From the NCBI GenBank assembly GCA_002469885.1, contig DKOI01000029.1, positions 1 to 58,693 on the forward strand: DNA of 58,693 nucleotides, read 5' to 3'. Source of the DNA: Legionellales bacterium UBA7366 (GTDB lineage: Bacteria; Pseudomonadota; Gammaproteobacteria; UBA7366). Shown one piece after another: positions 9,701-25,262 of the stretch; within the stretch, counting starts at the first letter, position 1; every line of letters starts with the position of its first letter. Under the pieces are notes generated by a model, which was not told the origin of the DNA, searched no databases, and saw nothing but the letters and a program-made list of their open reading frames with translations. Made by a program: the position numbers and the translations under genes.

Positions 9701-12700
9701 TTTTAACTATCCCGCCCCCAAAAACACTTCCAACTAAACCACCAACAACAAATTCACCCGTGACATCATCTGTTGCATACGAATTTTCAATAGTCGAACC
9801 ACTGTCAATGAGGCCCGCCAATCCACCGACAAAATTGCGGCCGTTGACATTACCCTTATTGTAGGCGCTAGTTATAAGCGAGAAAACATCGGCCTGACCT
9901 ACCAAACCACCTGTATAGTTACCTCCTACAATCGTGCCACCAATTAATCCGATATTCTTGATCGTGGCATTCTGTATATACCCGAACATACCAACATTTT
10001 CAGTAGAGCTTCTATTAATAAATAAATCCCTCACTGCAAACCCACGGCCATCAAGTTGACCTGTGAATTTCGTACTGTCATTACCTATTGGATTAAATCC
10101 AGCACCACTATTCCAATATTCCGTATCACTCGCATCAATATCACGCGTTAATACATAATCCCCTTGCATATCTAAAGTCACATAACGCAACTGTTCTGCC
10201 TCAGCAATATTGTAACTGAGCGCAGATTGTAGAACAGGCGTAAGCTGGCCATCCTCATCGCCGAGATAAACCCACGTGTCTTCAATACCGCGATTGTTAT
10301 TGTTGAAGCCCCAACCCAAATTAGAGAATGTCGATTCGTCCGCGCGTTCAACTGATGTGATGCCTATAGGTGAACCTATGACTATTCCCTCGTTAAAACC
10401 AATAGGCGCATAGAAACCGCTGCTTTCAACGTCCCAAAGTACATTATTAAAATCAACGGTTGCATTCTGCGCGATATGGCCAATTAAACCTGCTGTTGAT
10501 GAATTTTCATCGTGTATAAGTGAAGTCACATTGCCCGCAGAATAACTGTCAATAATAGACAGGCGCGTTGCATCATTCGCGTTCCAATCAACGACCCCAA
10601 TCATTCCCCCGGTATTACCCCCGCCGCCACGCACGTTTGCTGTTGTATAAGAATCTTGAATCACAATATGCGCTTGCGTACTTGTCAATAAAGCAGGATT
10701 AATCGCCCCCACTAATCCGCCTGTGCCATAAAGTAGCGAGTCATTTTGCACATCCCCAGTTGAAAAAACACGATTAAGCATCATTGGGCGATTATCTAAA
10801 GAATACAGATAGCCAACCAAGCCCCCAACACGGCCATTAGAATTCGTCGCTGTCACAGAGCCTGTAGAATACACATTATCAAAAACTGTAGATCCTCCTA
10901 ACATATAACCCACGACACCCCCTAAATCTGATACACCAACAATATCAGCCGAACTCCAACTGTCGATAATTCTACCTTCTCTCATAGACCCGACTAAGCC
11001 GCCCACATTGGTACTCACACCAGCAAGACCAATAGTCCCGCCTGAAACATAACTGTTTTGAATCAAGCCATCAGTTCGAAGTGTTGTTGGACTAAAGTAA
11101 CCTGAGAGACCACCAACATACGTATTACCAATGATAGTAGGGTCTATTAACCCTACATTTTTAACGACCCCACCATTATCAAGCCGCGAAAATAACCCAA
11201 TCTCACTTTCAGAGGGCCGAGTAATGGATAAATTTGAAATAGTATAATTTTGACCGTCAAGCGTTCCGTCAAAACCTTCATTAAGAAGATTATTAATAGG
11301 ATTGAATCCTTCCCCATTATTCCAACCCGCTGTTTCAGAAGCATCAATATTATTTCTTAATGTATACTCTCCGGTGGTATCAACATTGATTAACTGCAAT
11401 TGGGTGACATTTTGAATGCCGAAAATTTTTGCCATTGTATTTTCAATTTGAAGGTGTGGATAATCATCCTCTTTCACCATGATCCAATCACCATAGACAC
11501 CCGTACTATTGTTTAGAAAACTCCAACCAGCATAAGTGCCTTCTGTTTGCATTTGAGCTGTAAAATACCCTGTTCCACCGCCTGCACTGCTTGTTTGGCC
11601 CGTTGTTGCAATATCCCAATAAGAATTCGTTACTGTCCCTGCATTATCTGTTCCGACCAAACCTCCCACATCACCCAGGCCAAGCACTTTTCCACGCGCA
11701 TACGTATTGATAATGATAGAGTCATCATTAATGCCGGCAATACCACCGGTACTTGGGGTGCTTGTATAATTTATATCACCGAATAAATCTAACCCGCCAA
11801 ACACATCACTCTTCGTATAAGCATTCATCACAGTGGAAGAATCACTATTTGAACCAACAATCCCACCACCAATTAATGCCATATAAACCTTCCCAGATGA
11901 ATGCGCATTAAGAATCATTGCCCTACGGTTTTCACCAACTAAACCACCACTATTCGTAAAACCAAACACGGTGCTGTCTGCGTAAGCATTACTAAGCCAT
12001 GAGTCTGCTTGCTCGCCCAACACACCGCCGACAAAATTTAACCCTTGCACATAATTCTCATCGACAAACACATTATGCACTCGGGTTCTATTATCGCTTG
12101 AAGCAACGAGACTACCTACATAGAATTCACCTATATAGCTTGAATCTGTCACGCCCAAATTAGAAATAGTTGCCCCGCTGGTTTTTGCAAAAAGTCCAAC
12201 GAATGACTGGTTGTTTCTATCAAACCATAAATTACTGACAGTGTAACCACGCCCGTCCAAGCTCCCTGTAAACGGTGTGCCGTCAAACACGATATCAAAA
12301 TCTGGATCTGAATCTGTAATTAAGGCAATTGGACTAAAACCATAATAGTCTGTGGCACTTTCAGGATTCCAGTGAACGGTTTCACTCGCATCGATATTAT
12401 TGGCTAAGAAATAATTACCGGTTAAATCAACATCGATCATTTGTAATTCATTCACGTTTTTAATGCCGAACGTTTGCGCTAAGGTATTTTCCATTTGAAG
12501 ACGTGGGTAACGCGCAGAGCCTGCCATATACCAATCGCCTTCCACACCCACATTGTTATTCGTGAAATCCCAGTCAACATCCGTGTAGGTTTTCTGTGTT
12601 TGCATATCGGCGGTTGATTTGCCTATAACACCAGCCCCACCGGCACTGCTTGCTTTCCCTGACGTATCAACATCCCAGAAAGAACCCGTTACAGTACCAC

Positions 12701-15700
12701 CGACACTGGATCCTATAAGCCCCCCACCATTAGCACCACCGCCTGTCACGGCACCCACTGAATAGACCTGATCAATTATGCCGCCTGAGATTTGACCTAA
12801 AAATCCACCAACCGCTCCACTATATGAGCGCACATGACCCGTTGCGTAGGCGACACTAATATCGCCTGTTGCTAGCTCGCCGCTGAGCCCACCTACGTTT
12901 AACGTGCCCGTCACATCACCCGTGGAAAATGCATTTGAAATAGAGCCATAGTTACGTCCAACCAATCCACCGACAAAGTTGTAACCTAAAATGTCCCCCG
13001 TAGCATATGAATCAGTAATGACGCCTGAAGCATTATTCACACCCACAAGACCACCGGCATGAATTCCACCAGACAAAATATCGCCCGTACTGTAAGAGTT
13101 GCTAATGTTAGCATTATTTGAACCAACTAGCCCACCATGTGAACCGCCAAGGCTACCAAGCTGTCCACGCACCATTGCAGAGGAATAAGTGTTTTCAATG
13201 ATTGAATCGACTGCTAATCCAATGAGCCCACCGACATTAGAGTAACCTGCAATATCACCACCGACTAGACCAACATTTTTAACAGTTGCGTTCGAGGTTT
13301 TACCAAAAAGCCCCGCATAATAATTTGCAAACACATCACTATCAATTCCTTTATTCACAACCAAATCATTAATTGTGTGGAACTGACCATCAAACGAACC
13401 TGAAAAATCAGCGCTGGCACTATCGCCTATTGGCTTAAAGCCTAAACCGCCATTCCATATCGAGGTTGCGCCTGCGTCAATACTATTCATCAACTGGTAA
13501 TCTGCTGTTAAGTCAATATTAACTAATTGTAATTGCGTCAACGTTCTAATGTTATTGGTATGTTGTATCTGCAAAACTGGATAAGCGTTAGATCGCAACA
13601 TGTACCATTGACCATCCACACCTGTTCGATTATTTGAAAAGTCCCAACCCGCTGTTGTAAATGTTGATTGTGTTTGAAGTTCAGTTGTTGTTTTACCTGA
13701 AACATTGGTGAGTGTGATAGAGGATTCACCTGTTGTATCAGTGTATGTTCTAGATTGATTGTTGCCTTCGAATAATCTTGCATCAAGATCGGCTGTCGTG
13801 TTTAAACTAAAGACTTCAAAGAGGAGCGCACCAATGGCATCATCGACAAAGGCTGTGTCAGTATCATAATAAGCATGCTCGATTGAAACAATATCATCAA
13901 CATCGGCATTCACAATTTCACCGATAATACCACCTGTGTTATTTGAACCAACGATTAAACCAGTGGTGTAAACATTAGTGATCTCACCTTGATAAAGTGA
14001 ACCGATTAAACCACCCACAGCATTTTCACCAATTACGTTGCCTTGCGTATAGGCATTATCAAGTGTGAAGTTGAAACCCGATGTGTTAGCAAAACCTAAC
14101 AAACCACCCACATTATCGCTCCCCCACGTGCGTGATGTGCTGTAGACTTCATCAATATCCGCATTCGCATTTACTTGACCGACCAGGCCACCAACATTAT
14201 TCACCCCTTCAACACTGCCTTCACTGTAACTGTTGCTAAGGGTTGTATCGCCAGAAATCAAACCGATTAAACCACCGACGTTATTTACACCTATAACATC
14301 ACCTGTGACAAAGAGGTTGTTAGCGCTCAAATCTTCAGTGGCTAGTCCAACCAATCTTCCGACATTTTCCCCGCCGACAACAAGCGCATTGGTGAGGCCT
14401 AGGTTGCTAATGATTGCATTCCTTGTTACACCCAATAAGCCGACATTATCAACACCACCTTGATTGATATAAAGTGAATCAACAGCATAGCCTTGTCCAT
14501 CAAATGAACCTGTAAAGGCTCTTTCGTCATTGCCTAGAGAAGCAAAACCTGCATTAAAGCTGACTCCAGGATTCCAAAAATGCGTTTCAGTCGCATCAAC
14601 GTTATCTATTAAAGAATAATCGCCATCTAGATCAACCGCCATCATTTGTAAGTCTTCGATTGTGTCGATCTCATAGGTATTGACTCCCGTTTGCATCAAC
14701 TTTAACTGCATTTGTAATTGTGGAAACCCGGCCATGATCCAGTCACCATCGTCAATGGCATCATCAGGAATACCGTTAGTTGAAAAATCCCAAGCTGCAA
14801 ACGTGTCAGGATCACGCATTTCTGCAAGAAATCTTAACGCTACATCGGTAATTGCACCGGCATTGGTATCATCACCAATCACGTCATCAGTCGTATTATC
14901 TAAAGAGAATGAATTAGAAACGGTTGCCGTGTTTTGAACTTTACCAATTAATTGACCTACGGCTGTATTACCCGTGGTCGTACCGGTGGTATACGTATTA
15001 CTAATATCATCACTTGGCGCTGAACCGTGCAAACCCACTAAACCACCTACGCTGTTATAACCATCAACATCACCGGTGGCATAAGCATTTTGAATAGTTG
15101 AATTATTCTCGCCGACTAAGCCACCGATACTGTCATCCCCTTCAACGTTACCTGTCGCAAAACTGTTTTCGATGGTTGCATAGTTAGAACCGACAAGACC
15201 ACCGTGTTCTTCACCGCTTAATGCACCATTGTTACCTGTCACGTCACCACTGGCATAACTTTCAGAGACAACCGCATCGTTATCAATAAAACCTGCGAGC
15301 CCGCCAACAGATTTGTTACCGCTTACATTACCTGTTGCATTTGATTTCGTTACAAAGCTGCCATCCAAGGCACCGACTATGCCACCCACTTGATTACCTG
15401 CCGCTACATTGCCGGAAACTGTGCCTGTTGCTGTTGACTCTGAAATCGTTGCGCCGTTAATAACAGGCGTTTCAAAGTAAGTTGCCAACCCCACTAAACC
15501 ACCAATGTTTTCGTCATACCCTTCAACAGACGCTGATGAAGATACATTGGTAATTTTAGTTTGTTGAATAGCCCCCGCAATTGACCCTACGTTTGTTTTA
15601 CCGACGATTGTTCCGCCATCCAAATTAACATTTTTAATTTCAGAATCGGCGCCTTGAACAAAACCAAACAAGCCGACGTAGTCTTCGTTATTGCGATTAA

Positions 15701-17768
15701 TGGTTAAATCACTAATCGTGTTTGAATCCCCTTCTAAAACCCCTTTAAATGATGCTGCATTATCCCCAACGGGATCGAATCCTTTATCGCTATCCCATGT
15801 GCTTGTCGCACTTGCGTCAATGTCTTTCCCTAAAGCGTAATGACCATCGAGTGCTGTACTCATTTGTTGAAGGTCATACACATCATTAATCAACATGTAG
15901 GCATTTTCATTCGTCGCATCAACGTTGCTGCTGTAGTCAGTGGCTGCTGTGAAATCTGTCGTGCCATAAAAAATATCGACATCACCCAAGGTTTTCACTT
16001 GATCGACATCATTAAACATCACCGTTCCACCGGCAACGGCTGCATTGCCGCCGGCTAACGCCGATGAGTCAACACGGTTTGATGAATCTGAATCTGCACG
16101 CAGTGTAATGTTGCTGGCTTGTGTTGCTTCGATTAAAGCGCCTAGTTCAAAAATAATGTCGTTATGCGCATAAACAAATAAATCACTGTCTGCATTACCC
16201 CATGAAATTGCCGCCGCACTTGCGAAAGTCACGTCACCATCTTCTGTGCCTGTGCTGAGAGTTTGAATGATAACATCGGTGCCTAAATCTAAACTGTCTG
16301 AAATGCTTGTTGAGTTGGATCCGTCAACAAAAAAATCTGTTGGATCTAACAACCAAGAACCGCCCTCACCGCTCACAGAGCTTGCTGTCACTGATGCGCC
16401 AGAAATATCGAGCGTTTCTTTACCGGATGTTTCAACAAAACCACCAGCACCAATAAAACCTAATGCACTCGCGCTTGCAGTTCCGTGAAATTGTGTTTCT
16501 TTATCTGCCCAAGCAACAATGGTTCCCGCATCACCTGTAACATGTGAATCTGCTTTTAGTGTCGCGCCTGATTCAACGACTGTTCTTTGTGCTGTTTGAT
16601 ATTCACCTGATCCTTGTCTATCACCGCCTAATAAAATACTACCACCACCGGATTGACCGCTGACATCAATCGACGCACTATCTTCTACATCAATAAACTG
16701 CGCGAAGACGTGCACACTACCACCGGCTTCACCTGCATCATTTCCCACGGCATCTAGAAAGCCTGAGATATTAACTGTGCTTGAATTCCCATAGACGCCA
16801 ATGTGTCCTGCAACCTCCTCGTAACTTGTCGCCCTCATGTTGCCTGACAAGTTAATAATATTATCCAACACATCAACTGCACTGCCTGTTTGAATTAGAA
16901 TCGAACCACCCTCTGCAATCACATCACCACGTTGATCAATGGCAACCATCGTATCGATAAGCGAATCCATTGAGTCATCGTACGCAGTGGGTCTGACGAG
17001 AAGTCCTTTATCAATAACAAAGTTAATTAATCCATCGCCGTAAAAATCCATTGTGTATTGCGTACCAGAACCTAAAACGACGTTCCCTAAGTTCGCGCGA
17101 ATCACACCGTAGTTAGCAACGCCTGGTGCAACCAATGCAGCAAGTCCACTTTCAGAAACTATAGTCCCTTTGTTAACAACCGAAGAAGAAATCGAAGCTT
17201 CGTAATCATCACCTGAAAATGGTTTGAATTGAACATGATTAAGGCCACTCATGAAATCATTTTGATTATGCAAATCCAGAGTTGATGCCATTACCCCTGA
17301 TACGTTCACATAACTACTGGGTCCGAAATAAATGCCATTCGGATTTAAAATCCAGACACGCCCATTGGCTGTTAGCTTTCCATAGATTTCAGAAACCGAT
17401 CCGCCAGTAACACGGTTGACAGCAATTGAATTTGAATTAGGTTGTACGAATTGCGTATGCTCACCTTCTGCAATACTAAAATCTTTCCAGTTGATCACTG
17501 CACGGTTAGAGTGTTGGAGGATTGTAGTTTTTTGTCCTTCAGCAATAATGTCAGCGCTACCTGCTGCAACCACGCCCTCTTGAGGATTGGCTGTAACAAC
17601 AGTCGAAAACAGGATTGTGGTGGTTGCTGCGATGGATAATGAAAATGACTTTACGAGTGAGCGCAGATCAGCGGTATGAAAGAACAAGGCGATTCTAGAT
17701 TGAATACGTAAGCCCTGTGTTCTCTTTGGCGTAATGCTTGACTGCTTCGAAAAATTTTCTAGCTTCAT
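729..17768 (-). CDS. Giant (5679 aa) two-partner-secretion exoprotein: N-terminal TPS domain, FHA-like beta-helix, 11 long GLUG-motif modules, unique C-terminal region
   Basis: Single uninterrupted ORF. The N-terminus has an extended signal-like region, then NPQEGVVAAGSADII..AVINWKDFSIAEGEHTQFVQPNSNSIAVNRVTGGSVSEIYGKLTANGRVWILNPNGIYF, which matches the TPS domain hallmarks INW..F, NRV.GG and NPNGI. The body contains dozens of G-G-L-[VI]-G (GLUG-type) repeats. They are organised in modules that each start with Y.L..[DN]IDAS.T..W...GF.PIG...F.G.[LF]DG.G..I..L.I.R and end with FWD[VI].TSG...S.G...M.....T....W.F.....W.M....P.LQ. Confidence 0.9.
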   Translation of the reverse strand: MKLENFSKQSSITPKRTQGLRIQSRIALFFHTADLRSLVKSFSLSIAATTTILFSTVVTANPQEGVVAAGSADIIAEGQKTTILQHSNRAVINWKDFSIAEGEHTQFVQPNSNSIAVNRVTGGSVSEIYGKLTANGRVWILNPNGIYFGPSSYVNVSGVMASTLDLHNQNDFMSGLNHVQFKPFSGDDYEASISSSVVNKGTIVSESGLAALVAPGVANYGVIRANLGNVVLGSGTQYTMDFYGDGLINFVIDKGLLVRPTAYDDSMDSLIDTMVAIDQRGDVIAEGGSILIQTGSAVDVLDNIINLSGNMRATSYEEVAGHIGVYGNSSTVNISGFLDAVGNDAGEAGGSVHVFAQFIDVEDSASIDVSGQSGGGSILLGGDRQGSGEYQTAQRTVVESGATLKADSHVTGDAGTIVAWADKETQFHGTASASALGFIGAGGFVETSGKETLDISGASVTASSVSGEGGSWLLDPTDFFVDGSNSTSISDSLDLGTDVIIQTLSTGTEDGDVTFASAAAISWGNADSDLFVYAHNDIIFELGALIEATQASNITLRADSDSSNRVDSSALAGGNAAVAGGTVMFNDVDQVKTLGDVDIFYGTTDFTAATDYSSNVDATNENAYMLINDVYDLQQMSTALDGHYALGKDIDASATSTWDSDKGFDPVGDNAASFKGVLEGDSNTISDLTINRNNEDYVGLFGFVQGADSEIKNVNLDGGTIVGKTNVGSIAGAIQQTKITNVSSSASVEGYDENIGGLVGLATYFETPVINGATISESTATGTVSGNVAAGNQVGGIVGALDGSFVTKSNATGNVSGNKSVGGLAGFIDNDAVVSESYASGDVTGNNGALSGEEHGGLVGSNYATIENSFATGNVEGDDSIGGLVGENNSTIQNAYATGDVDGYNSVGGLVGLHGSAPSDDISNTYTTGTTTGNTAVGQLIGKVQNTATVSNSFSLDNTTDDVIGDDTNAGAITDVALRFLAEMRDPDTFAAWDFSTNGIPDDAIDDGDWIMAGFPQLQMQLKLMQTGVNTYEIDTIEDLQMMAVDLDGDYSLIDNVDATETHFWNPGVSFNAGFASLGNDERAFTGSFDGQGYAVDSLYINQGGVDNVGLLGVTRNAIISNLGLTNALVVGGENVGRLVGLATEDLSANNLFVTGDVIGVNNVGGLIGLISGDTTLSNSYSEGSVEGVNNVGGLVGQVNANADIDEVYSTSRTWGSDNVGGLLGFANTSGFNFTLDNAYTQGNVIGENAVGGLIGSLYQGEITNVYTTGLIVGSNNTGGIIGEIVNADVDDIVSIEHAYYDTDTAFVDDAIGALLFEVFSLNTTADLDARLFEGNNQSRTYTDTTGESSITLTNVSGKTTTELQTQSTFTTAGWDFSNNRTGVDGQWYMLRSNAYPVLQIQHTNNIRTLTQLQLVNIDLTADYQLMNSIDAGATSIWNGGLGFKPIGDSASADFSGSFDGQFHTINDLVVNKGIDSDVFANYYAGLFGKTSNATVKNVGLVGGDIAGYSNVGGLIGLAVDSIIENTYSSAMVRGQLGSLGGSHGGLVGSNNANISNSYSTGDILSGGIHAGGLVGVNNASGVITDSYATGDILGYNFVGGLVGRNYGSISNAFSTGDVTGTLNVGGLSGELATGDISVAYATGHVRSYSGAVGGFLGQISGGIIDQVYSVGAVTGGGANGGGLIGSSVGGTVTGSFWDVDTSGKASSAGGAGVIGKSTADMQTQKTYTDVDWDFTNNNVGVEGDWYMAGSARYPRLQMENTLAQTFGIKNVNELQMIDVDLTGNYFLANNIDASETVHWNPESATDYYGFSPIALITDSDPDFDIVFDGTPFTGSLDGRGYTVSNLWFDRNNQSFVGLFAKTSGATISNLGVTDSSYIGEFYVGSLVASSDNRTRVHNVFVDENYVQGLNFVGGVLGEQADSWLSNAYADSTVFGFTNSGGLVGENRRAMILNAHSSGKVYMALIGGGIVGSNSDSSTVMNAYTKSDVFGGLDLFGDINYTSTPSTGGIAGINDDSIIINTYARGKVLGLGDVGGLVGTDNAGTVTNSYWDIATTGQTSSAGGGTGYFTAQMQTEGTYAGWSFLNNSTGVYGDWIMVKEDDYPHLQIENTMAKIFGIQNVTQLQLINVDTTGEYTLRNNIDASETAGWNNGEGFNPINNLLNEGFDGTLDGQNYTISNLSITRPSESEIGLFSRLDNGGVVKNVGLIDPTIIGNTYVGGLSGYFSPTTLRTDGLIQNSYVSGGTIGLAGVSTNVGGLVGSMREGRIIDSWSSADIVGVSDLGGVVGYMLGGSTVFDNVYSTGSVTATNSNGRVGGLVGYLYSLDNRPMMLNRVFSTGDVQNDSLLYGTGGLVGAINPALLTSTQAHIVIQDSYTTANVRGGGGNTGGMIGVVDWNANDATRLSIIDSYSAGNVTSLIHDENSSTAGLIGHIAQNATVDFNNVLWDVESSGFYAPIGFNEGIVIGSPIGITSVERADESTFSNLGWGFNNNNRGIEDTWVYLGDEDGQLTPVLQSALSYNIAEAEQLRYVTLDMQGDYVLTRDIDASDTEYWNSGAGFNPIGNDSTKFTGQLDGRGFAVRDLFINRSSTENVGMFGYIQNATIKNIGLIGGTIVGGNYTGGLVGQADVFSLITSAYNKGNVNGRNFVGGLAGLIDSGSTIENSYATDDVTGEFVVGGLVGSVFGGGIVKTSFATGDVTAASNGAGGLVGSIQVNGRVFNAYATGSVTGDNNVGGFAGSSEGGITNAYSEGFVTGAGSTGGFLGFWSAFDSNTNTYWNIQTSGQAGSAGAGVIGKTPNQMTQEATFTDWNFENSAFGLPGGEWIMAGTPHLQMEHTTDITNVNELALTVLDPFSDYVLMNDIDASQTEAWNYASGLYNGFTPIGLFAGSLDGQGFAIRDLFVRPTNTNLESIGLFSFVHLSDVSNLELINPVVTAPGVANNKVGALSGSVIASTIDNVGVINGTVYGIDRVGGLVGEATMSAISHSFATGTVSGDDVVGGLAGALRYKSSLAYVYSAATVMGDGGQVGGLVGAIESVDASNEMTVQNAYAIGDVFASSSYAGGLIGLVQNADIQEVYATGAVRGDSYVGGLFGELSGGSVSEGFATGRVTASSDAGGLFGLYLSGSSLDKLFWDEQSTKMTGAANGNNNSIAGTTGIELTAEMKDSAVLVGLDFADTWEWILPDSGTEYYDYPHLISENAYGIVSTAGNDGTTGDVVALLSDGLLTGFKGEFLTNDSYMITMREDRVPAGSHLLLFNDSSDSANVVMVTDGQELISSNGPLLLDTYMLAVSPPTAISKIIGIWAAPGDTFFISDIADAVGDYQGKGVRVEYSDDTLRFTNNTNLVTTEELVIDETFALDAHVNGGVYFLNDVSSKEFNTGLIFSGEGTATAEADVDLAYFELQDGTWDQQSIDPTAQTFYANDFRLTGGEFKRFLNSTTPFQIADVYGLQGLNTLSMTNDYTVVNNIDARVTESWNDGEGFMPIGSGGSAYQGIFNGGGHLIDGLTIHRPTENYVGLFSATTGATVEIQHIGLTNVDIIGNSNVGALVGDVNNVNPVAGASISNVFVEGRVQGMSDNVGGVIGVLGTDATIDQAYSLGSVIGGWQRTGGLIGVINSGTNNVTNSFSMSTVTGGIFGIAGGFAGDIKAGAKLSRVYAQGDVIGSNGSTNVGGFAGTYSGAMLDQAYSTGLVSGTGLNFAGFIGQNITGNITHSFWNTETSGYAIGVPPTNPQPGLNELVGLDTEGLMTQSVITSTPGNNWNFSTDWIMAGYPMLRAFNDTLVNNVIELQLMINDLSADYTLTADIDASDTVNWNAGAGFKPIGFTNGSEFIGQLDGNGYNISDLTINRPLEVSVGLFGKVAGNALAITNVNLVDIDIIANGFTGGLVGESSSNGTISDVSVSGTIDSAESWAGGLVGISNGNFNPTISNIYTDVDITGKFNLGGIAGTLSGTNATSGTTLKNVYSTGELTGLGQIGGIVGQNYIGVSIENSYSTSKINSTGSNVGAFIGFNGGNQVQNSFIDSSVNDVMNAIGGGTLGGVDKITTAELTNINTFTGWGSDFYENGGNTWIMAGLPHLQLELNLMRTSDNHFEIDDAVDLQLATLDLDGIYTLTQDIDASVTREWNCISSCTTGTPEYAGFEPIGSYNDRFLGTLDGQQHEIDGLYMKWDSGDFVALFEAVGEGALIKDLGLTSVHIEGGQRLAALAGYMTGASRVQNSYSTGNIYATNAAWAGGLIGIMQDDADSIIQNSYSTANVSGYAWSMGGLIGLFNSGKVFNSYTLGSVSNTAEVNSGFDTGGLTGIIGSQATIINSYAAGPITGNNAGGLMGSSQGFGGTVKNSFWDVDTTGQATSAAGTGLTHAEALTKSTYTNAGWDFTSIWQIPEGIDAPRLIAEGNLDAISGQVYDSSLSASAQNIGVVLGGGSSIARHTVSLSDGSYSFALSAREMENAAGDEVIIFVDNNTGFTANTLFRKEDDVDVTDLNLIQDTIIAGYENGTDVDMALLNDATKNYMSSSIGYTVSGSTLDTSSNAFIANNEYSTGSNETIISTSDRGIAFNDTLELSSGDITLDNNASTGNVYLNADILSTPADTYNLNIDAGPGAIVLDGNVIKPNDISFLANEAVIAGNLQLVNTTAFDFPLHFRGDTVFSSTSTGATALNFQEAISSDYSMLTLNMLIGKQILAGSTVDLDTFYLERGVWAQDLLNPTLQTFSARDFRLGDVDVAVFLRGNFNSFPNIFISDVYGLQGIGSTSLTLNPGANISLSENIDASGTEHWYDGAGFRPIGDSSNPYQGTFDGQDFSITGLTILTTNKNTGLFGYTDSASIHNVELMDADIDSTETYTGALIGQAVNGTTVTQVHSSGVVYGGNNTGGLIGDLNNSAVFESFSIADVYSTGDNVGGLVGVLGGSATATDTYARGDVTALDAVGGLVGTQTGTSLIKTSYSSGNVTATDIVVAGQGALVGEKTGGDIENSYALKDAGLGVNVGLNMVGSDGLILGLKDDTQMRKASTFDGFDFASIWEMLGDPENSVDYPVFQFQDLFSIYGRVLDTLNMNLPAETVNLASNGVIQAGVTTVSSAATDPNNNYALIFSEKDFVGDEAILLFLSSGVANTVFELYDDAGVIPSFNLDIKQGEVRAVSFADSINEPSNTLLSTAAINTLGYTVAGTDVTVDSGLAFHSLADTSFTVDGDITTTAANIQFDTIASVNSGKNLSTKAGDLLFNSDLTLNGNNVLSTSAVNVTFNNTASFDGSNTFNADGGNLHFAGVTNFVGGPNVITTTGGAIDFDSNVNLDNSINNFNTAGGDVTFGGPLANTGTSAVTIAAGTGDLIFTSGNPIGTALDPITLTVNSVNHVELPVGLFEVVKTQVASSVHLSEAGRFNDAMNLLKVGGTLDIANTYPGGEPFIIEADEGILLKLENPMLNVPIVDIQGDVNFLTDATLTSDTSFDVAGNLIFADGTQIVFNALNDNISFMDPATVNGPGDLTLNSDTPVDLFAQIGNVTRLNSIHFPGVLNVVGDSSVSAGTVLFDDAITNSTPVDLTVSAPASGGFIRFGGQVSSPGTPMTLAVPEGGTAHLYAPIYTPLSLHQVYVVNRFNTGRLTDAWAIMRTSADFTQPFGISRPGLSRIGLPYNPLYPYHLNEMDEKLKVFLVPNKIIYIHDELQSNLTYVPGPYNDVISGFIY
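2660..15900 (-). repeat. Eleven diverged tandem coding modules (roughly 300-450 aa each) inside the giant exoprotein gene (approximate bounds)
   Basis: I counted 11 occurrences of the module-start motif: GKDIDASATSTW, IDNVDATETHFW, MNSIDAGATSIW, ANNIDASETVHW, RNNIDASETAGW, TRDIDASDTEYW, MNDIDASQTEAW, VNNIDARVTESW, TADIDASDTVNW, TQDIDASVTREW, SENIDASGTEHW. The repeats are diverged at protein level, and I saw no long identical DNA repeats. Confidence 0.8.
16780..17590 (-). other. Region encoding the TPS (haemagglutination activity) secretion domain of the giant exoprotein (approximate bounds)
   Basis: Corresponds to residues ~60-330 of the 5679-aa ORF, covering the motifs INWKDF, NRVTGG and ILNPNGIYF and the following beta-helix coils. 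Boundaries are estimated by eye. Confidence 0.6.
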
Positions 17769-18871
17769 ACTCTATCCACTTTGACTTAATCTATATGACA
17801 TCTTTATTAGTGAACTCTTTTTAAGCTTAGTCCAAATATTATGATTACACCGGCGAGCTAATTTGATTCGTGAATCTATTCAACCTGTTAAGGCGTAAAA
17901 TATATTTTCGTATGATTTGCCAATGTATTAACAGCAAAAAACGACGATAGGTGCCTGAATATGGTTTTTTATTGGACTTCTGAGTTATTCTTGAACGTTA
18001 TCGGTTTGGGAAAGCCTGTTTCAGAAATAATACGAAATTTGACGGAGTTGTTTTGAGAGGCTAATGCGACAGAAAAAATACACTATTTTCAAGATGAGAG
18101 TTTAATAAGTTATTAATCCGTGACTTAGCGCATTGTTGAACAAAATACAAACTGGCAAGCGAGCTTTGGAATAAGAAAAAATGGATAATTCAGTAGGAAT
18201 TCGTGAATTTTAGGCACATATAATAGCAAAAAAACCCTATATTGGAACTTTTATAGGACAATCGAATCATTTAAAAAGCAAAAAACCGTTTTTGCCAGCT
18301 TAGCCAGCAAATATTTGTGTATTTTATTGACTGGACAACGCCCGAATTAAGCTGTGTAAGGCATTGTTTTTGGGTGCGAAAAAAAGCACCAAAAACAAAC
18401 AGAAAATAACCTTTTTAGATTTTATTTTCGATGAAAATACTCGTTCATATTTTTATCATTCCATATTATAGAAAAATATCGACAGGAAAAACGAGACAAT
18501 TATGAACAGTGAAAAACTCTTTAAATCCCCCAAATCCGAAACCTCATCAACTTATCAAAAGCACCTGTGGAACGCACATAAAACCGCCCCAGGGAGTTTT
18601 ATGGCTATATATGTATCCTCACTTCAAATGCGCACGTCAACAATTTATAGACCAGCCATACAAATAAACTCCCGTCAAAACAAGATTATAACCTATGAAT
18701 TTCAGAGACTTATGAACCTCGAATTTGCACAGTGAAAAAAACTGTTAATACTCAGTGAGTTCGGATAGGAATTGACTTGAATGCAATAAAGTTTAAAACG
18801 TGCCTTAAATCAATTAACTAGCTGTATATTCACTTCGAAACATCATACTCAAGCTTATTATCGATGGAGCA

Positions 18872-18887
18872 TGTTTCACGTGAAACT
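18872..18887. promoter_or_regulatory. parS: parS-like ParB binding site (TGTTTCACGTGAAACT, 15/16 to the palindromic consensus)
   Basis: Direct read of the sequence. The consensus is TGTTNCACGTGAAACA. Confidence 0.75.
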
Positions 18888-18900
18888 TTAAAACGATTCC

Positions 18901-18916
18901 TGTTCCACGTGGAACG
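18901..18916. promoter_or_regulatory. parS: parS-like ParB binding site (TGTTCCACGTGGAACG, degenerate)
   Basis: Direct read. The core GTTCCACGTGGAAC is a perfect 14-bp palindrome, and the site lies 13 bp from the previous one. Confidence 0.65.
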
Positions 18917-19452
18917 CTCAATCACACTCTCACGCCCTGCTCTATTTATGAACAAAAAAGCGCACTAAAAACTGAACCACACACCGAAAAAGAAACAAAT
19001 CGATAAGCGCAAAACGGTAACTTTACTCAAAAAAACGAAGGATGAGACCGACCTGGGACTATACAATATTTACCCCTTCATCATCACGAAAAAACTCTAA
19101 AAAAAAGTCTTTTGCGCTAGATTGAATATCGTTTTTTTAGTAATTATCGTTAGTAAATTTTGACCAAATCATGACCCTGTGAAAATATAACGAAAGCTGA
19201 AAATAATCAATTCTAGACCTTACAAATACATCGGATCTTTTTAAAAATTTCCAAATTAATCATGGGACGAAAGAAGAACAGTCTTTCTTCCGCCTAAATG
19301 CGAGACTGCCTAAATAAAGCCCGCTGAAAAATATCATGGGAAAAACATCTTTTCGATATTGTTTTTTGTTGAAAATGAACAGAAGGACATTAATGGTCAA
19401 AAATCTTTCTGAATCAATTCAAAGCAAGAATATAAGTCGATTAAGTGCTACA

Positions 19453-19478
19453 TTATCCACATATTTTTTGGTGGATAA
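19453..19478. promoter_or_regulatory. Inverted pair of DnaA boxes: TTATCCACA (perfect), tatttttt spacer, GGTGGATAA (complement TTATCCACC, 1 mismatch)
   Basis: Direct read. The consensus DnaA box is TTATCCACA. A further 1-mismatch box, TGTGGCTAA, lies at about 20451-20459. Confidence 0.6.
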
Positions 19479-19723
19479 ACGATGCAACACAGTTTTGAAT
19501 AACGCTAGACGCTATAAAAATTTAGATAATTAAATCTCGCCGATTAACAATCATACAATCGATAGATATCTTTAAAAGAAACCTTTAGAACATAAGCAAA
19601 AAAAGAGCCCATCTGGTGATGTCAATCATTAGAGGCTTGGCTGTTGAAATTCTAGATATATTCGACATTATGCAGCAGCTATTCTTAGTACACCAACCCT
19701 AGCTATACGCATTCAAATAATAA

Positions 19724-19739
19724 TGTTTCACGTGGAACA
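19724..19739. promoter_or_regulatory. parS: parS site TGTTTCACGTGGAACA (complement TGTTCCACGTGAAACA, exact consensus)
   Basis: Direct read. Flanking A/T extend it to the 18-mer ATGTTTCACGTGGAACAT. Confidence 0.85.
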
Positions 19740-19792
19740 TTTCAGACCTGTTTATTTTCGTAACATCGGGAAAAAGGGCGTTTTTAAGCAAA

Positions 19793-19808
19793 TGTTTCAC
19801 GTGGAACA
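19793..19808. promoter_or_regulatory. parS: parS site TGTTTCACGTGGAACA (exact consensus)
   Basis: Direct read. Same 18-mer as at 19723-19740, 53 bp downstream of that site. Confidence 0.85.
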
Positions 19809-20765
19809 TGATAAAAACAGTAAGCTATTGAATATTGACTGCTAAAAACCCGATAGCACTACTAAAATTTGTAATTAATGCCCTAAAAATGTAATTGAAG
19901 TTGGAATAGATGCAAGCGCATATTGGTAGGAGCTGGGAACAGATCTTGAAGACTCATAACAAATCCGTCCAGCTAATTAAGAAGAGCTAAAAAATAAAAG
20001 GGCGCTAACACCGCAATGGAATCATTTATCTTGTATTTATTAAACAGAACAAAGACTAAAAGTTACTGTTATTTATGTAGCAAGCGACCTTAAGAACCAT
20101 CGAAATATCTACAGCCTAGCGTCAAACACCTCTTCTTATTAACTAAAGTGAAGAAAATCTCAAAAAAAACAAGAAATTTTTTCACATCAAACACATGACG
20201 TTTAGTTTGGCAAAGATACCTGATCAGGTCTAAAGGCACCTGGAAATTACTCTTAGTAATGCGAATAATCTTCGAGTCATCTAACTGAAATATTCGATAT
20301 TAATTTCCCTGTGAATAGGCAGCATTTTAAGAAGAAAAAAACGATGTAAGCAGTCCCTTAAAAAGAAAATTTAATATCGTTTTTTAAATGAATATCGATA
20401 GGGCGAATCTTAGTGAAGTACGCTTAAAAACTCAAAACTCCGGAAACTTTTGTGGCTAATTTTAGCGCCCTAATATATAACGATAATCATTAAATTATCG
20501 GTAGTGTTTCTTGATGAATTAAAAAATAAGAATAATTCATCATGTGATGACCTTAATTTAGCTGTGCGCAAATTTGAACATTCGATTCTCGCTGGGATTA
20601 CCGAAATTTTAAATTAAATAAAACACGAAAGCTCGAGGCAAAAGCGAGAAAAGGCTTCTGAGTCTGAAGCCTCGTGCTCAACCAGCTGGAATTTTCGTGA
20701 TATTCGAATTTTTTTAAAGGGTATTCTGAGTACCCAGACCCTTCTAAGTCCCTTATCAACATAGA

Positions 20766-20781
20766 TGTTTCACGTGGAACA
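20766..20781. promoter_or_regulatory. parS: parS site TGTTTCACGTGGAACA (exact consensus)
   Basis: Direct read. Same 18-mer ATGTTTCACGTGGAACAT. Confidence 0.85.
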
Positions 20782-20836
20782 TTTAGCCTTTGCCTAACAC
20801 CTCCAACTTGCCTGTTCTTGGAGATTTTAAGTGACA

Positions 20837-20852
20837 TGTTTCACGTGGAACA
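20837..20852. promoter_or_regulatory. parS: parS site TGTTTCACGTGGAACA (exact consensus), 16 nt downstream of the recF stop codon
   Basis: Direct read. Same 18-mer, 55 bp from the previous site. Confidence 0.85.
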
Positions 20853-20868
20853 TGTAAAAACTATTAAG

Positions 20869-21942
20869 CTATTGAATATTCCCAGCCCTTATCTTAAGGA
20901 GCTTGCTAGGGAGTGTATTTAGATGGGGTAAAATTGTTTTTGCGTCTGTACAAGTGATAAAAAGCTGGCTTTGCTGGTCGGAAAGCAACTGTAGCACTTT
21001 TCCTTGGTTTAAGTAATCTAGCTCTGCCACTAAGTCATCTAGAAGGTAAATACAACTTTTTTGCTTAACGGATTTAAACAACAGTCCCTGTGCAATTTTC
21101 ATTGCACAGATGAATAGCTTTTGCTGACCACGTGAAAGAACTTCCTTAGCAGGGTGTTTACCCACTTTAATCTTAAGATCCGCATGATGTGGCCCGAACT
21201 GGGTATAGCCAAGTGATGCATCCCTGATAAAACCATCTGTAAGAGCGTCTTCGTATGACTTATCTGCAGGCCAACCTGAATAGTAACGTATGTCGAGGTT
21301 AGGGAGATCAATTAACTCCGGTAAGATCTTATATAAGGTTTCACAGAACAGCTCTATATAGCTTTTGCGTGCGGCATCAATCCTTAAACCGTTCTCTATG
21401 ACTTCCGCATTCCAAGACAGTATCTCGTCACGCTTGCACTGTGTCCTCAATGCCATGTTGCGTTGCTTCACACATCTTGAATAATTCTTCCATACATTCA
21501 CAAAATTATGTTCCACGTGAAACACTCCCCAGTCAACGAAGCTCCGTCGCAAACCTGGCCCACCTTCAAGCAAACTAAAGCTATGTGGTTCCAACAACTG
21601 TAATGGCAACACCTCAGCAAGCTTTGATGCTGAATAAACATCCTCACCGGCAATACGCATACGACTGCGCCCATTAGCAGAGCGCTCAACACCTACCGGT
21701 TTGTTTTGTTGCTCAACGTCAAGCACATTAGCAAACAGAGAGAACGCGTCAGCATTGTGTGAAACAATTCTATTGATGATATGTGTTCTAAAGGACTTCC
21801 CTAAACCCAAGAAGTGGATTGCTTCTAGAAAGCTTGTCTTCCCACTACCGTTTTCTCCCTGAATGATGTTGACGTTACTTAACTCTGTAGAGACTGATTC
21901 TAAGTTTCTAAAGGTATTTATATTAAGCTGTGTAATAGACAT
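20869..21942 (-). CDS. recF: DNA replication and repair protein RecF
   Basis: 357 aa. N-terminus MSITQLNINTFRNLESV, Walker A GENGSGKTSFLEAI, and a C-terminal LLDD.. Walker B/signature region. Located directly downstream of dnaN. Confidence 0.95.
   Translation of the reverse strand: MSITQLNINTFRNLESVSTELSNVNIIQGENGSGKTSFLEAIHFLGLGKSFRTHIINRIVSHNADAFSLFANVLDVEQQNKPVGVERSANGRSRMRIAGEDVYSASKLAEVLPLQLLEPHSFSLLEGGPGLRRSFVDWGVFHVEHNFVNVWKNYSRCVKQRNMALRTQCKRDEILSWNAEVIENGLRIDAARKSYIELFCETLYKILPELIDLPNLDIRYYSGWPADKSYEDALTDGFIRDASLGYTQFGPHHADLKIKVGKHPAKEVLSRGQQKLFICAMKIAQGLLFKSVKQKSCIYLLDDLVAELDYLNQGKVLQLLSDQQSQLFITCTDAKTILPHLNTLPSKLLKIRAGNIQ
21509..21524. promoter_or_regulatory. parS: parS site TGTTCCACGTGAAACA (exact consensus, opposite orientation) embedded in the recF coding sequence
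   Basis: Direct read. On the coding (minus) strand it reads GTG TTT CAC GTG GAA CAT, encoding V-F-H-V-E-H of the RecF segment DWGVFHVEHNF. Confidence 0.8.
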
Positions 21943-22170
21943 AGGTAGGGGGTTAAACTCTTAAATTAATAACGAGACGCCTGGACTAATATACCTTCGC
22001 TAGAGGAGTATTTCTATAGTGTTTTCTAACCACAGTATGACAAACGCTTTTTCCACAAAAAAAACATGTTATTTGCTAGAAATCCCTCTCCAATTTCTTT
22101 CCACTCAAACCGTGCAACTAAATGCGATTGCTTTTCATAACCAGAATGATGCCATACTTGATGTTGTAGC

Positions 22171-22295
22171 GCTGCGCATTTCCTGCAGGCGCATCGCCTT
22201 CGCGCTGCTTGTGCAGGCTACATTAGAAGAAAAACACCAAGAACGATGAGGCATGTCGTAGCCCGCATAAGAGAACAACGTGAACGCCTGCGGGG
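22171..22295. repeat. MITE/REP-like element, family A, copy 1 (about 125 bp with ~40-bp imperfect terminal inverted repeats)
   Basis: The left arm CCTGCAGGCGCATCGCCTTCGCGCTGCTTGTGCAGGCTAC pairs with the right arm GTAGCCCGCATAAGAGAACAACGTGAACGCCTGCGGGG. Confidence 0.75.
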
Positions 22296-22320
22296 TTCAA
22301 ATCAACACATGAGTTGATTC

Positions 22321-22446
22321 GCTTCGCGCATTTCCTGCAGGCGCATCGCCTTCGCGCTGCTTGTGCAGGCTACATTAGAAGAAAAACACTCTGAACGATA
22401 GACTTGTCGTAGCCCGCACAAGAGAACGAAGTGAACGCCTGCGGGG
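22321..22446. repeat. MITE/REP-like element, family A, copy 2 (tandem to copy 1, near-identical)
   Basis: GCTTCGCGCATTTCCTGCAGGCGCATCGCCTTCGCGCTGCTTGTGCAGGCTACATTAGAAGAAAAACAC...GTCGTAGCCCGCACAAGAGAACGAAGTGAACGCCTGCGGGG. The left ~75 bp are identical to copy 1. Confidence 0.8.
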
Positions 22447-22470
22447 CTTCAATAAAAAAATGCTCTGGAA

Positions 22471-22546
22471 GTCCGGGAGATTCCCGAAGGCGATAAAGAT
22501 ATTTAATTATATAGATCCTGGATCAAGTCCGGGACAACGGGGATTC
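22471..22546. repeat. Small palindromic TCCGGG-type repeat (family B-like)
   Basis: GTCCGGGAGATTCCCGAAGG...AGTCCGGGACAACGGGGATTC. Motifs are related to the elements at 27977-28031 and 57491-57550. Weaker case than family A. Confidence 0.4.
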
Positions 22547-22564
22547 TAATAGCAAAAAAATCAA

Positions 22565-25077: not shown

Positions 25078-25156
25078 AGATAAAACTCCTAAGCAAAAGA
25101 AAAAATAACACGGGTGGGTTAGGGTACCAAAAAACCATGGGCGAAGGGAAGTAGGC

Positions 25157-25177
25157 TTTTCCACAATTTTATCCACA
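25157..25177. promoter_or_regulatory. Two tandem DnaA boxes (TTTTCCACA and TTATCCACA) in the dnaA/polA divergent promoter region
   Basis: Direct read: TTTTCCACA at 25157-25165 and a perfect TTATCCACA at 25169-25177, 80-100 bp upstream of the revised dnaA start. Consistent with dnaA autoregulation. Confidence 0.7.
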
Positions 25178-25262
25178 GCGAATGTCATAGAAGAGCCTAT
25201 TATTTTGCAAAGAAAATGCATACAATTCAAAGCAATTTTAATGGCTTAAGGTAACAAATTCT

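What the first reader, a model, noticed from the sequence alone, without database searches (positions are those of the whole stretch)
17769..20868. 3.1-kb coding desert replaces gyrB downstream of recF (broken dnaA-dnaN-recF-gyrB synteny)
No ORF longer than 79 aa exists on either strand between the recF stop (20869) and the start of the giant exoprotein gene (17768). The three ORFs in the track (77, 65 and 79 aa) have no convincing ribosome-binding sites, and one runs straight through two parS sites. By eye the stretch is markedly more AT-rich than the flanking genes. I did not compute base composition. In most gammaproteobacteria gyrB follows recF directly. Here it is absent from the whole window. 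A 3-kb noncoding block is very unusual in a compact bacterial genome. It must be doing something: acting as a centromere (see the parS finding), serving as an origin, providing a long regulatory or 5-prime UTR region for the 17-kb adhesin gene, encoding ncRNAs, or representing a fully decayed insertion.
Basis: partly seen in the sequence, partly recalled or inferred. Interest (0 to 1): 0.7.

Follow-up and report, generated by a model that had tools for sequence, protein, structure and literature searches.

The report
Gene-free parS centromere array after recF
A 3.1-kb stretch with no genes, next to the replication genes of an uncultured marine bacterium, carries six copies of the DNA signal gripped by the chromosome-partition protein ParB, so it is most likely an enlarged bacterial centromere, a known kind of element in an unusually roomy, gene-free form.

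Summary
Window 17769-20868 has no ORF above 79 aa and is 34% GC against 44% elsewhere. It is five times longer than any other spacer in the window. It sits where relatives carry gyrB. It is identical in at least 15 independent metagenome contigs, so it is not an assembly artefact.

No trace of a gene was found. That covers gyrB remnants, Pfam domains in six frames, Rfam families, tRNAs and similarity to plasmids or phages. The small ORFs score like spurious ORFs.

The desert carries six canonical parS sites in three pairs about 0.9-1.0 kb apart, plus a seventh inside recF. Only 0.13 sites are expected by chance for the whole window. One pair-module is a diverged duplicate of the recF-proximal one. 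Its flanks are 63% identical, yet all 36 parS bases are identical. Distant relatives keep a single parS at the 3' end of recF. A sister species (RecF 87%) keeps the pair, its 71-bp spacing and a few short boxes in otherwise unalignable, ORF-free DNA.

Best reading: an ancestral recF-end centromere site expanded into a gene-free ParB loading zone after gyrB was displaced. An origin, an ncRNA and a decayed gene are not supported. ParB binding is inferred, not shown.

The parts
17769..20868 (.). Gene-free, AT-rich spacer (the 'desert') between the giant TpsA gene and recF
   Evidence: No ORF above 79 aa. GC 34.1% against 43.6% elsewhere. No Pfam hit in any of six frames. No Rfam or tRNA match. 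ORF codon-usage scores are -0.07 to +0.08, against 0.26+-0.10 for real genes. No period-3 signal.
18872..18887 (.). parS site 1a (TGTTTCACGTGAAACT), distal pair
   Evidence: The 14-nt core is a perfect palindrome. It lies 29 bp start-to-start from site 1b.
18901..18916 (.). parS site 1b (TGTTCCACGTGGAACG)
19724..19739 (.). parS site 2a (TGTTTCACGTGGAACA), middle pair
   Evidence: Part of the identical 18-mer ATGTTTCACGTGGAACAT shared by four sites.
19793..19808 (.). parS site 2b, 69 bp from 2a
20766..20781 (.). parS site 3a, recF-proximal pair
   Evidence: The sister species L018 has a degenerate counterpart (TGTTCCACATGGAACA) at the same 71-bp spacing.
20837..20852 (.). parS site 3b, 17 nt after the recF stop; the ancestral recF-end site
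   Evidence: The same site is present in L018. Relatives L001-L006 (RecF 39-42%) have a parS in the last ~30 nt of recF, and L007 has one just past the aligned part of recF.
21509..21524 (.). parS site inside recF, encoding the VFHVEH stretch; outside the desert but part of the same cluster
   Evidence: Conserved in L018 and L019.
19645..19836 (-). Duplicated parS-pair module (copy), including a copy of the last codons and stop of recF (AATATTCAATAG)
   Evidence: Aligns with 20687-20880. Identity is 63% outside parS, and 36 of 36 parS bases are identical.
20687..20880 (-). Source parS-pair module at the 3' end of recF
20720..20733 (-). Conserved box GTACTCAGAATACC, about 32 nt after the second parS of the pair
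   Evidence: An identical 14-mer sits at the colinear place in L018. A degenerate copy (GTACTAAGAATAGC) lies at 19678-19691 in the duplicated module.
20369..20401 (-). 33-nt motif CTAWCGATAWT..AAAAAACGATATT, copy A
   Evidence: 82% identical to copy B. A colinear copy is present in L018. All three exact AAAAAACGAT in the window lie in the desert.
19121..19153 (-). 33-nt motif, copy B
20640..20673 (-). Probable intrinsic terminator of the dnaA-dnaN-recF transcript: an 8-bp GC-rich stem followed by a U-rich tail
   Evidence: Fold of -25.4 kcal/mol for the 91-nt stretch, z = -2.4. It missed the strict scanner.
18291..18311 (-). Terminator-like hairpin about 520 nt upstream of the giant gene
   Evidence: The fold is weak, z = -0.9.
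19453..19478 (.). Inverted pair of DnaA-box-like 9-mers (TTATCCACA / TTATCCACC) 8 nt apart
   Evidence: As a hairpin, z = -3.0. The pair is isolated, not part of a box cluster.
20869..21942 (-). recF, last gene of the dnaA-dnaN-recF block
729..17768 (-). Giant (5679 aa) two-partner-secretion exoprotein gene bounding the desert
   Evidence: Homologues of its N-terminus carry PF05860, but the best is only 45% identical.

Best explanation
The desert is an expanded chromosomal centromere region. In this lineage a single ancestral parS site at the 3' end of recF has grown into seven sites: three pairs in the spacer and one inside recF. At least part of that growth came from duplicating a ~200-bp 'parS-pair' module. 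ParB dimers would load at these sites, which lie 0.7-1.0 kb apart, and slide outward. That would form one continuous ParB domain of roughly 4-5 kb, from the promoter region of the giant gene to recF, which ParA (and probably SMC) then uses to segregate the dnaA-proximal part of the chromosome. The spacer arose when gyrB was displaced from its place after recF. Most of the DNA between the sites is free to drift. It may be tolerated or favoured as transcription-poor ground for ParB. Shown: the sites, their duplication, their conservation, and the absence of genes. Inferred: ParB binding, spreading and any benefit of the empty DNA.
For: Six sites in the desert and one in recF match TGTTTCACGTGRAACA within 2 mismatches; an eighth place within 2 mismatches (13689, inside the giant gene) has a broken CACGTG core and is not counted. 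0.13 matches are expected for the whole window, and 0 of 100 shuffles reach the observed count. The sites form three pairs (29, 69 and 71 bp) at about 0.9-1.0 kb intervals. Module 19645-19836 duplicates 20687-20880, including the recF stop. Identity is 63% outside parS but 36/36 within, P~7e-8, which indicates selection on the sites. Relatives with RecF 39-42% identical each have a single parS at or just past the recF 3' end. The RecF-49% relative has three sites. The RecF-87% sister keeps the recF-internal site, the recF-end site and a second site at the same 71-bp spacing, in DNA that blastn cannot otherwise align. The gene-free state recurs: at least 720 bp in the 87% relative and 846 bp without a called gene in the 69% relative. 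All alternatives tested came back negative. Literature: P. aeruginosa parS1 and parS2 lie in recF, and ParB represses promoters beside intergenic parS (PMC5521831). Caulobacter clusters its five strongest parS sites (seven in all) within 5 kb, ParB covers about 2 kb per site, and new sites are tolerated next to the native cluster (PMC5815017).
Against: No parA or parB gene lies in the window or in the 17.8 kb of scaffold to its right, so ParB in this genome is assumed, not seen. oriC was not located, so origin proximity rests only on the adjacent dnaA. Six 16-bp sites need about 100 bp, not 3.1 kb, and nothing shows that the spacer DNA itself is selected. Only one informative relative with DNA was available, covering 720 bp. 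The second site of the sister's pair has a central CACATG, which may bind poorly. Conserved non-parS boxes (GTACTCAGAATACC and the CGAT..AAAAAACGATA motif) are not explained by ParB.
Confidence: 0.6

Rival explanations
1. Neutral leftover: a rearrangement or the insertion of the TpsA adhesin island separated recF from gyrB and left or brought in junk DNA. The parS sites work, but the 3 kb has no role and simply has not been deleted yet.
For: Outside parS and a few boxes the sister species is unalignable. GC (34%) matches ordinary spacers in this genome. The giant gene has no close homologue, best 45%, which fits recent acquisition. Synteny after recF is also broken differently in the RecF-49% relative, where parC/parE follow recF.
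Against: A gene-free stretch after recF is seen in three lineages, with RecF 100%, 87% and 69% identical. Bacterial deletion bias should erase useless DNA over that divergence. parS pairs were duplicated and then maintained inside the spacer. Colinear conserved boxes exist. The rest of the window is compact, about 89% coding with the next-longest spacers 638, 622 and 486 bp, the first of which holds a called GerE-family gene.
Confidence: 0.2
2. Long regulatory region of the giant TpsA gene: binding sites for silencers or activators, possibly including ParB spreading from the distal pair, control expression of a costly 17-kb adhesin gene.
For: The distal parS pair is 1.1 kb upstream of the start codon. 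ParB represses promoters next to intergenic parS in P. aeruginosa (PMC5521831). The stretch is rich in A-tracts, 15.8 runs per kb against 4.7. Repeated short motifs of unknown binder are present.
Against: Promoter-like matches are fewer than in shuffles, 7 against 11.6. A terminator-like hairpin at 18291-18311 limits any leader to about 520 nt. The conserved boxes found so far lie at the recF end, not the adhesin end. No relative with this adhesin was found to test conservation.
Confidence: 0.1
3. Relocated replication origin (oriC), or part of a bipartite origin, next to the dnaA operon.
For: The region is AT-rich and adjacent to dnaA-dnaN-recF. It has a perfect and a near-perfect DnaA box as an inverted pair at 19453-19478, plus two more one-mismatch boxes within 1.3 kb. 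parS clusters normally lie near origins.
Against: Only two matches to TTWTNCACA fall in 3.1 kb, and there is no dense box cluster. No repeated AT-rich 13-mer-type element was found. Cumulative GC skew shows no minimum here and keeps falling to the right end of the window. An origin here would put dnaA-dnaN-recF head-on to the rightward fork. The dnaA-polA spacer has its own two adjacent boxes.
Confidence: 0.07
4. Unrecognised genes: novel small proteins or novel non-coding RNAs fill the region.
For: Gene callers call the 77-, 79- and 46-aa ORFs. The strands differ in composition, with 35 A-runs against 14 T-runs on the + strand. Two terminator-like hairpins lie on the - strand.
Against: The ORFs score like spurious ORFs. 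They have no Pfam hit. For the 77-aa ORF, HMMER against 1.84 billion representatives finds only itself plus two repeat-protein artefacts, and a read-through variant exists. The start of the 79-aa ORF is absent in L018. Rfam gives nothing above noise.
Confidence: 0.08

Closest known systems
Origin-proximal chromosomal parS clusters bound by ParB (Caulobacter crescentus parS1-7; Pseudomonas aeruginosa parS1-4)
   Same: Canonical 16-bp parS palindromes. Several sites lie within a few kb, next to dnaA/recF. In P. aeruginosa two sites lie inside recF (PMC5521831). Caulobacter has its five strongest sites (seven in all) within 5 kb (PMC5815017).
   Different: Here six of seven sites lie in a 3.1-kb stretch with no genes. 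They come in pairs at about 1-kb intervals. One pair is a recognisable duplicate of another. gyrB, the usual neighbour, is gone. ParB binding is untested.
Plasmid centromeres made of repeated sites in non-coding DNA (F sopC, R1 parC, P1 parS) - from general knowledge
   Same: A dedicated non-coding stretch built of repeated partition-protein binding sites that arose by duplication.
   Different: Those are short (0.1-0.5 kb) tight tandem arrays beside their own parAB genes. This one is chromosomal, sparse (sites about 1 kb apart), uses the chromosomal parS consensus, and has no parAB in view.
Canonical dnaA-dnaN-recF-gyrB block of Gammaproteobacteria
   Same: dnaA-dnaN-recF order and orientation are kept. 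polA lies divergent from dnaA, as in the nearest MAGs.
   Different: gyrB is missing from the window and is replaced by the desert plus TpsA genes. A RecF-49% relative has convergent parC/parE there instead.
Bacterial oriC
   Same: AT-rich non-coding DNA near dnaA with some DnaA-box matches.
   Different: No dense box cluster, no repeated unwinding element, and no skew switch.

Membership tests
Chromosomal ParABS centromere (parS cluster) | Sites match the 16-bp parS consensus TGTTNCACGTGAAACA | tested here: met
   Seven sites within 2 mismatches of TGTTTCACGTGRAACA; four match the pattern exactly and a fifth (in recF) matches it exactly on the other strand. 0.13 matches expected by chance.
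Chromosomal ParABS centromere (parS cluster) | Sites are conserved in position among relatives or under purifying selection | tested here: met
   The recF-end site is present in L001-L007, L018 and L019. 36/36 parS bases are identical between duplicated modules whose flanks are 63% identical.
Chromosomal ParABS centromere (parS cluster) | Location in the origin-proximal part of the chromosome | tested here: inconclusive
   The cluster is adjacent to dnaA-dnaN-recF. oriC itself was not located, and GC skew in the window is uninformative.
Chromosomal ParABS centromere (parS cluster) | Genome encodes ParB (and ParA) that binds the sites | not testable with these tools
   No parA or parB in the window or the adjacent 17.8 kb. 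The rest of the genome could not be queried, and binding needs an experiment.
oriC | Dense cluster of DnaA boxes | tested here: not met
   Two TTWTNCACA matches and four boxes with at most one mismatch are spread over 1.3 kb.
oriC | AT-rich unwinding element with repeated 12-13-mers | tested here: not met
   No tandem or closely spaced short repeats in the desert.
oriC | Switch of cumulative GC skew | tested here: inconclusive
   No minimum at the desert. Skew falls again from 28 kb to the window end. The signal is dominated by one 17-kb gene.
Pseudogene / decayed mobile element | Residual protein or DNA similarity to genes, IS elements, phages or plasmids | tested here: not met
   tblastn with relatives' GyrB and with all window proteins. 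Six-frame Pfam at E<=1. blastn against plasmids and phages. All negative.
Known structured RNA families (Rfam 15) and tRNA/tmRNA | Covariance-model match at or near the gathering score | tested here: not met
   No match at gathering score. The only match at E<=1 is 19.6 bits against a 50-bit cut-off.
Small protein-coding genes | Coding statistics and homologues | tested here: not met
   Codon-usage scores fall in the spurious range. No Pfam hit. No true homologue of the 77-aa ORF among 1.84 billion representatives. The 79-aa ORF is not conserved in L018. The 65-aa ORF was tested only by Pfam and codon score.

The most novel reading that the evidence does not exclude
The desert is a 'regional' bacterial centromere: a dedicated, heritable, transcription-poor platform. 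Paired parS sites at about 1-kb intervals, together with the conserved non-parS boxes (GTACTCAGAATACC and the CGAT-N11-AAAAAACGATA motif) bound by a second, unknown factor, would build a larger partition or SMC-loading complex than ordinary gene-embedded parS sites allow. The empty DNA would itself be selected, because transcription would sweep ParB clamps away.
Probability: 0.12. Interest if true: 0.65.

Novelty: new member of a known kind. Interest (0 to 1): 0.35.

Why it matters
How bacterial centromere regions grow from one parS site to many is an open question, raised explicitly in PMC5815017. This locus shows the steps in natural sequence. Distant relatives have one site at the recF end, an intermediate relative has three, and this genome has seven. 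One of those additions is a still-recognisable module duplication whose parS bases were preserved while its flanks drifted. It also offers a natural case for testing whether ParB domains and genes exclude each other, and whether ParB spreading silences a neighbouring giant adhesin gene. For annotation, it is a warning that a long 'empty' spacer beside dnaA-recF need not be an origin or a misassembly.

Tried and rejected
1. gyrB or other pseudogene remnants. I ran tblastn with relatives' GyrB and 27 other neighbour proteins, tblastn with all window proteins, and six-frame Pfam at E<=1. Nothing was found.

2. Mobile-element origin. blastn (word size 11) against 72,556 plasmids and 50,697 phages gave no match.

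3. Known RNAs. Rfam at gathering score and at E<=1, plus ARAGORN, gave nothing.

4. Small proteins. Pfam, codon-usage score, exact cluster look-up and a full HMMER search of the 77-aa ORF gave only self and repeat artefacts.

5. Origin. DnaA-box scans, repeat scans and skew gave no origin-like cluster.

6. Curved DNA or coding periodicity. There is no 10-11-bp or 3-bp periodicity of AA/TT.

7. More relatives of the desert.
- The GTDB scan gave only RecF at or below 42% identity.
- The protein search gave one usable sister contig, L018.
- The 69% relative has no DNA on hand.
- The 98% hit is the same strain with a homopolymer error.
- The giant-protein N-terminus has no close homologue.

8. Metagenome DNA scans. 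A scan for the parS-pair-plus-box module gave 0 hits. A scan for the 23-nt CGAT..AAAAAACGATA motif gave 10 hits, all unrelated contexts without parS, so they are chance matches.

9. Population variation as a test of constraint. Contigs are 99.8-100% identical, with too few SNPs to use.
Full report
**Observation.**
- The stretch 17769-20868 lies between the start of a 5679-aa gene (729-17768, minus strand) and the stop of recF (20869-21942, minus strand).
- On either strand the longest ORFs are 79, 77 and 65 aa.
- GC is 34.1% against 43.6% for the rest of the window. The window's short spacers range from 33 to 45%, so the composition is that of ordinary non-coding DNA in this genome rather than of foreign DNA.
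- At 3100 bp it is five times longer than the next spacers (638, 622 and 486 bp), in a window that is about 89% coding.
- The same sequence, at 99.8-100% identity, occurs on at least 15 contigs from independent ENA, Logan and JGI assemblies. One of them is labelled a marine metagenome. The desert is therefore not an assembly artefact.

**Broken synteny.**
- The nearest genomes in the GTDB scan are uncultured Coxiellaceae and Gammaproteobacteria MAGs, with RecF 39-42%, DnaA 71% and PolA about 60% identical. The loci whose genes were listed are ordered dnaA-dnaN-recF and then an 805-813-aa ORF, and in L003 and L004 polA lies on the opposite strand upstream of dnaA.
- Pfam identifies that ORF as GyrB.
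- Other relatives at 46-47% RecF identity also carry a gene directly after recF. In one it is an annotated gyrB.
- tblastn with two of these GyrB proteins finds nothing in the desert at E<=10, and no gyrB anywhere in the window.
- A RecF-49% relative has convergent parC/parE after recF.
- The closest relatives look like the window. The RecF-87% contig L018 has at least 720 bp without an ORF above 59 aa after recF. The RecF-69% contig has 846 bp without a called gene.
- A gene-free stretch after recF is therefore a feature of this small clade and not of one strain.

**What the desert is not.**
- Six-frame translations have no Pfam match at E<=1.
- No protein of the window or of the relatives' neighbourhoods leaves a remnant.
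- There is no DNA similarity to plasmids or phages.
- There is no Rfam family or tRNA.
- Promoter-like matches are fewer than in shuffles.
- The small ORFs have codon-usage scores of -0.07 to +0.08. Real 70-codon fragments score 0.26+-0.10 and spurious ORFs inside genes score -0.10+-0.12.
- The small ORFs have no Pfam domain.
- A full HMMER search of the 77-aa ORF against 1.84 billion representatives returns only itself and two tandem-repeat proteins whose scores are sums of many weak repeats.
- The 79-aa ORF starts inside a parS site, and its start is not conserved in L018.
- There is no 3-bp or 10-11-bp periodicity.

**What the desert carries.**
- A search for TGTTTCACGTGRAACA with up to 2 mismatches gives eight places in the window. 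Six are in the desert: 18872, 18901, 19724, 19793, 20766 and 20837. One is in recF at 21509. One, with a broken core, is in the giant gene. The whole window is expected to hold 0.13.
- The six desert sites form three pairs, 29, 69 and 71 bp start-to-start. The pair centres are 872 and 1043 bp apart, and the recF site lies a further ~700 bp on.
- Four sites share the identical 18-mer ATGTTTCACGTGGAACAT.
- The middle pair sits in a module (19645-19836) that aligns with the recF-proximal module (20687-20880). The match includes a copy of the last recF codons and the stop (AATATTCAATAG), so the module was copied from the recF end.
- Outside the two 18-mers the copies are 63% identical. Inside them 36 of 36 bases are identical, P about 7e-8 at the flank rate. 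That is the signature of selection (or conversion) acting on the parS sites after duplication.

**Comparative evidence.**
- Loci L001-L006 each have exactly one parS within 11-21 kb, and it lies in the last ~30 nt of recF. L007 has one just past the aligned part of recF.
- L019 (RecF 49%) has three: one inside recF, one at the recF end and one in the spacer before parC.
- L018 (RecF 87%) aligns with the window at 82% through recF. blastn loses the alignment immediately after the first downstream parS.
- A global alignment and shared-word analysis of L018 against the window nevertheless shows colinear islands:
  - the recF-end parS;
  - a second site 71 bp on (TGTTCCACATGGAACA);
  - the 14-mer GTACTCAGAATACC about 32 nt later, also present in degenerate form in the window's duplicated module at 19678-19691;
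  - AATTTAATGATT;
  - a ~30-nt motif, CTnnCGATwwTnAtTwAAAAAACGATA, that occurs twice in the window (20369-20401 and 19121-19153, minus strand).
- Shared 12-mers number 41 against 0.9 expected. Most are parS, but at least 7 are not.
- All three exact AAAAAACGAT in the window lie in the desert.
- I could not assign these boxes to a known binding protein. A metagenome scan for the 23-nt core returned only ten unrelated, parS-free contexts, about what chance predicts.

**Transcription signals.**
- On the recF strand an 8-bp GC-rich hairpin followed by UUUUCUCGCUUUU lies at 20640-20673, about 200 nt after the recF stop (z = -2.4). The recF transcript therefore probably runs through the proximal parS pair and the GTACTCAGAATACC box and ends there.
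- A second, weaker terminator-like hairpin lies at 18291-18311, about 520 nt upstream of the giant gene. Any leader of that gene is therefore short, and the 3 kb is not one long 5' UTR.

**Origin hypothesis.**
- The desert has one perfect and one near-perfect DnaA box as an inverted pair (19453-19478), plus two further one-mismatch boxes within 1.3 kb.
- Only two sites match the relaxed consensus TTWTNCACA.
- There is no repeated AT-rich element.
- Cumulative GC skew shows no minimum here and resumes falling from 28 kb to the end of the window.
- The 197-bp dnaA-polA spacer has two adjacent boxes of its own.
- I rate an origin in the desert as unlikely but not excluded.

**Mechanism proposed.**
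- What follows from established knowledge of ParABS (marked as such): ParB dimers load at parS as clamps and spread over neighbouring DNA. In Caulobacter this is about 2 kb per site, and clustering raises the local ParB concentration (PMC5815017).
- Inference for this locus: sites every 0.7-1.0 kb from 18.9 to 21.5 kb would give one continuous ParB domain. It would cover the desert, recF and the promoter region of the giant gene.
- In P. aeruginosa, ParB bound at intergenic parS represses adjacent promoters, and two sites lie inside recF (PMC5521831). Some repression of the adhesin gene is therefore plausible.
- Whether the empty DNA is selected as transcription-free ground for ParB, or merely tolerated, cannot be decided from sequence. 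For selection: its persistence in three lineages and the compactness of the rest of the window. Against: the rapid drift of most of its sequence.

**Comparison and novelty.**
- The element works like, and by its sequence features belongs with, origin-region chromosomal parS clusters. The consensus, the clustering and the conservation were tested and met. ParB itself and origin proximity could not be tested.
- The unusual features are the gene-free setting, the paired sites at kilobase intervals, the traceable duplication, the displaced gyrB and the extra conserved boxes.
- I file it as a new member of a known kind. It has moderate interest as a natural record of centromere expansion.

**Limits.**
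- Only one relative with usable DNA overlaps the desert, and only for 720 bp.
- Population data are nearly clonal.
- No expression or binding data exist.

Noticed in passing
window 21943-22564 (recF-dnaN spacer), 22174-22452; also 619-703: A GC-rich 152-bp unit is repeated 1.8 times in the 622-bp spacer between dnaN and recF (92% identity). A partial copy lies between the two TpsA genes. One metagenome assembly (L011) has about 100 extra bases inside the array, so copy number may vary. It looks like a small dispersed REP/MITE-like repeat.
   Followed up: partly
window 23698-25230 and 25066-25262: The listed dnaA ORF is over-extended at its 5' end. Alignment with relatives puts the start near 25062. 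The resulting 197-bp dnaA-polA spacer holds two adjacent DnaA boxes (25157 TTTTCCACA and 25169 TTATCCACA). In relatives L003 and L004 polA also lies on the opposite strand upstream of dnaA, directly adjacent in L004.
   Followed up: partly
window 1-~450 (minus strand): A second two-partner-secretion exoprotein gene (TPS-domain N-terminus: ...VINWKTFDVDANEIVRFDQQAGNHSITLNRVTGG...) starts downstream of the giant gene and runs off the left end. No TpsB transporter gene is visible in the window.
   Followed up: no
window 10869-31942 and loci L010-L017, L033-L040: Contigs from many independent metagenomes (ENA, Logan, JGI; at least one labelled marine) are 99.8-100% identical to the window over 2-21 kb. 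This is an almost clonal, widely sampled population, or possibly a recurrent contaminant.
   Followed up: partly
window 53076-57482, 40307-41953, 41956-42471, 51469-52131: Four sizeable ORFs (1468, 548, 171 and 220 aa) have no Pfam domain at E<=1e-5.
   Followed up: no
window 18502-18735: The 77-aa ORF is called as a gene in several public assemblies. One variant (P0242, 88 aa) reads through its stop. No homologue exists outside this strain.
   Followed up: yes
window 17769-20868, + strand: The strands differ markedly in homopolymer runs: 35 runs of A5+ against 14 of T5+ on the + strand, and AT skew of +0.13 to +0.20. This is unexplained. It could reflect past or present transcription or a replication-strand bias.
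   Followed up: no
L019 (RecF 49% relative), 1262-5667: In this relative recF is followed by convergent parC and parE (topoisomerase IV) instead of gyrB, with a parS site in the 240-bp spacer. This is a second, independent break of recF-gyrB synteny in the group.
   Followed up: partly
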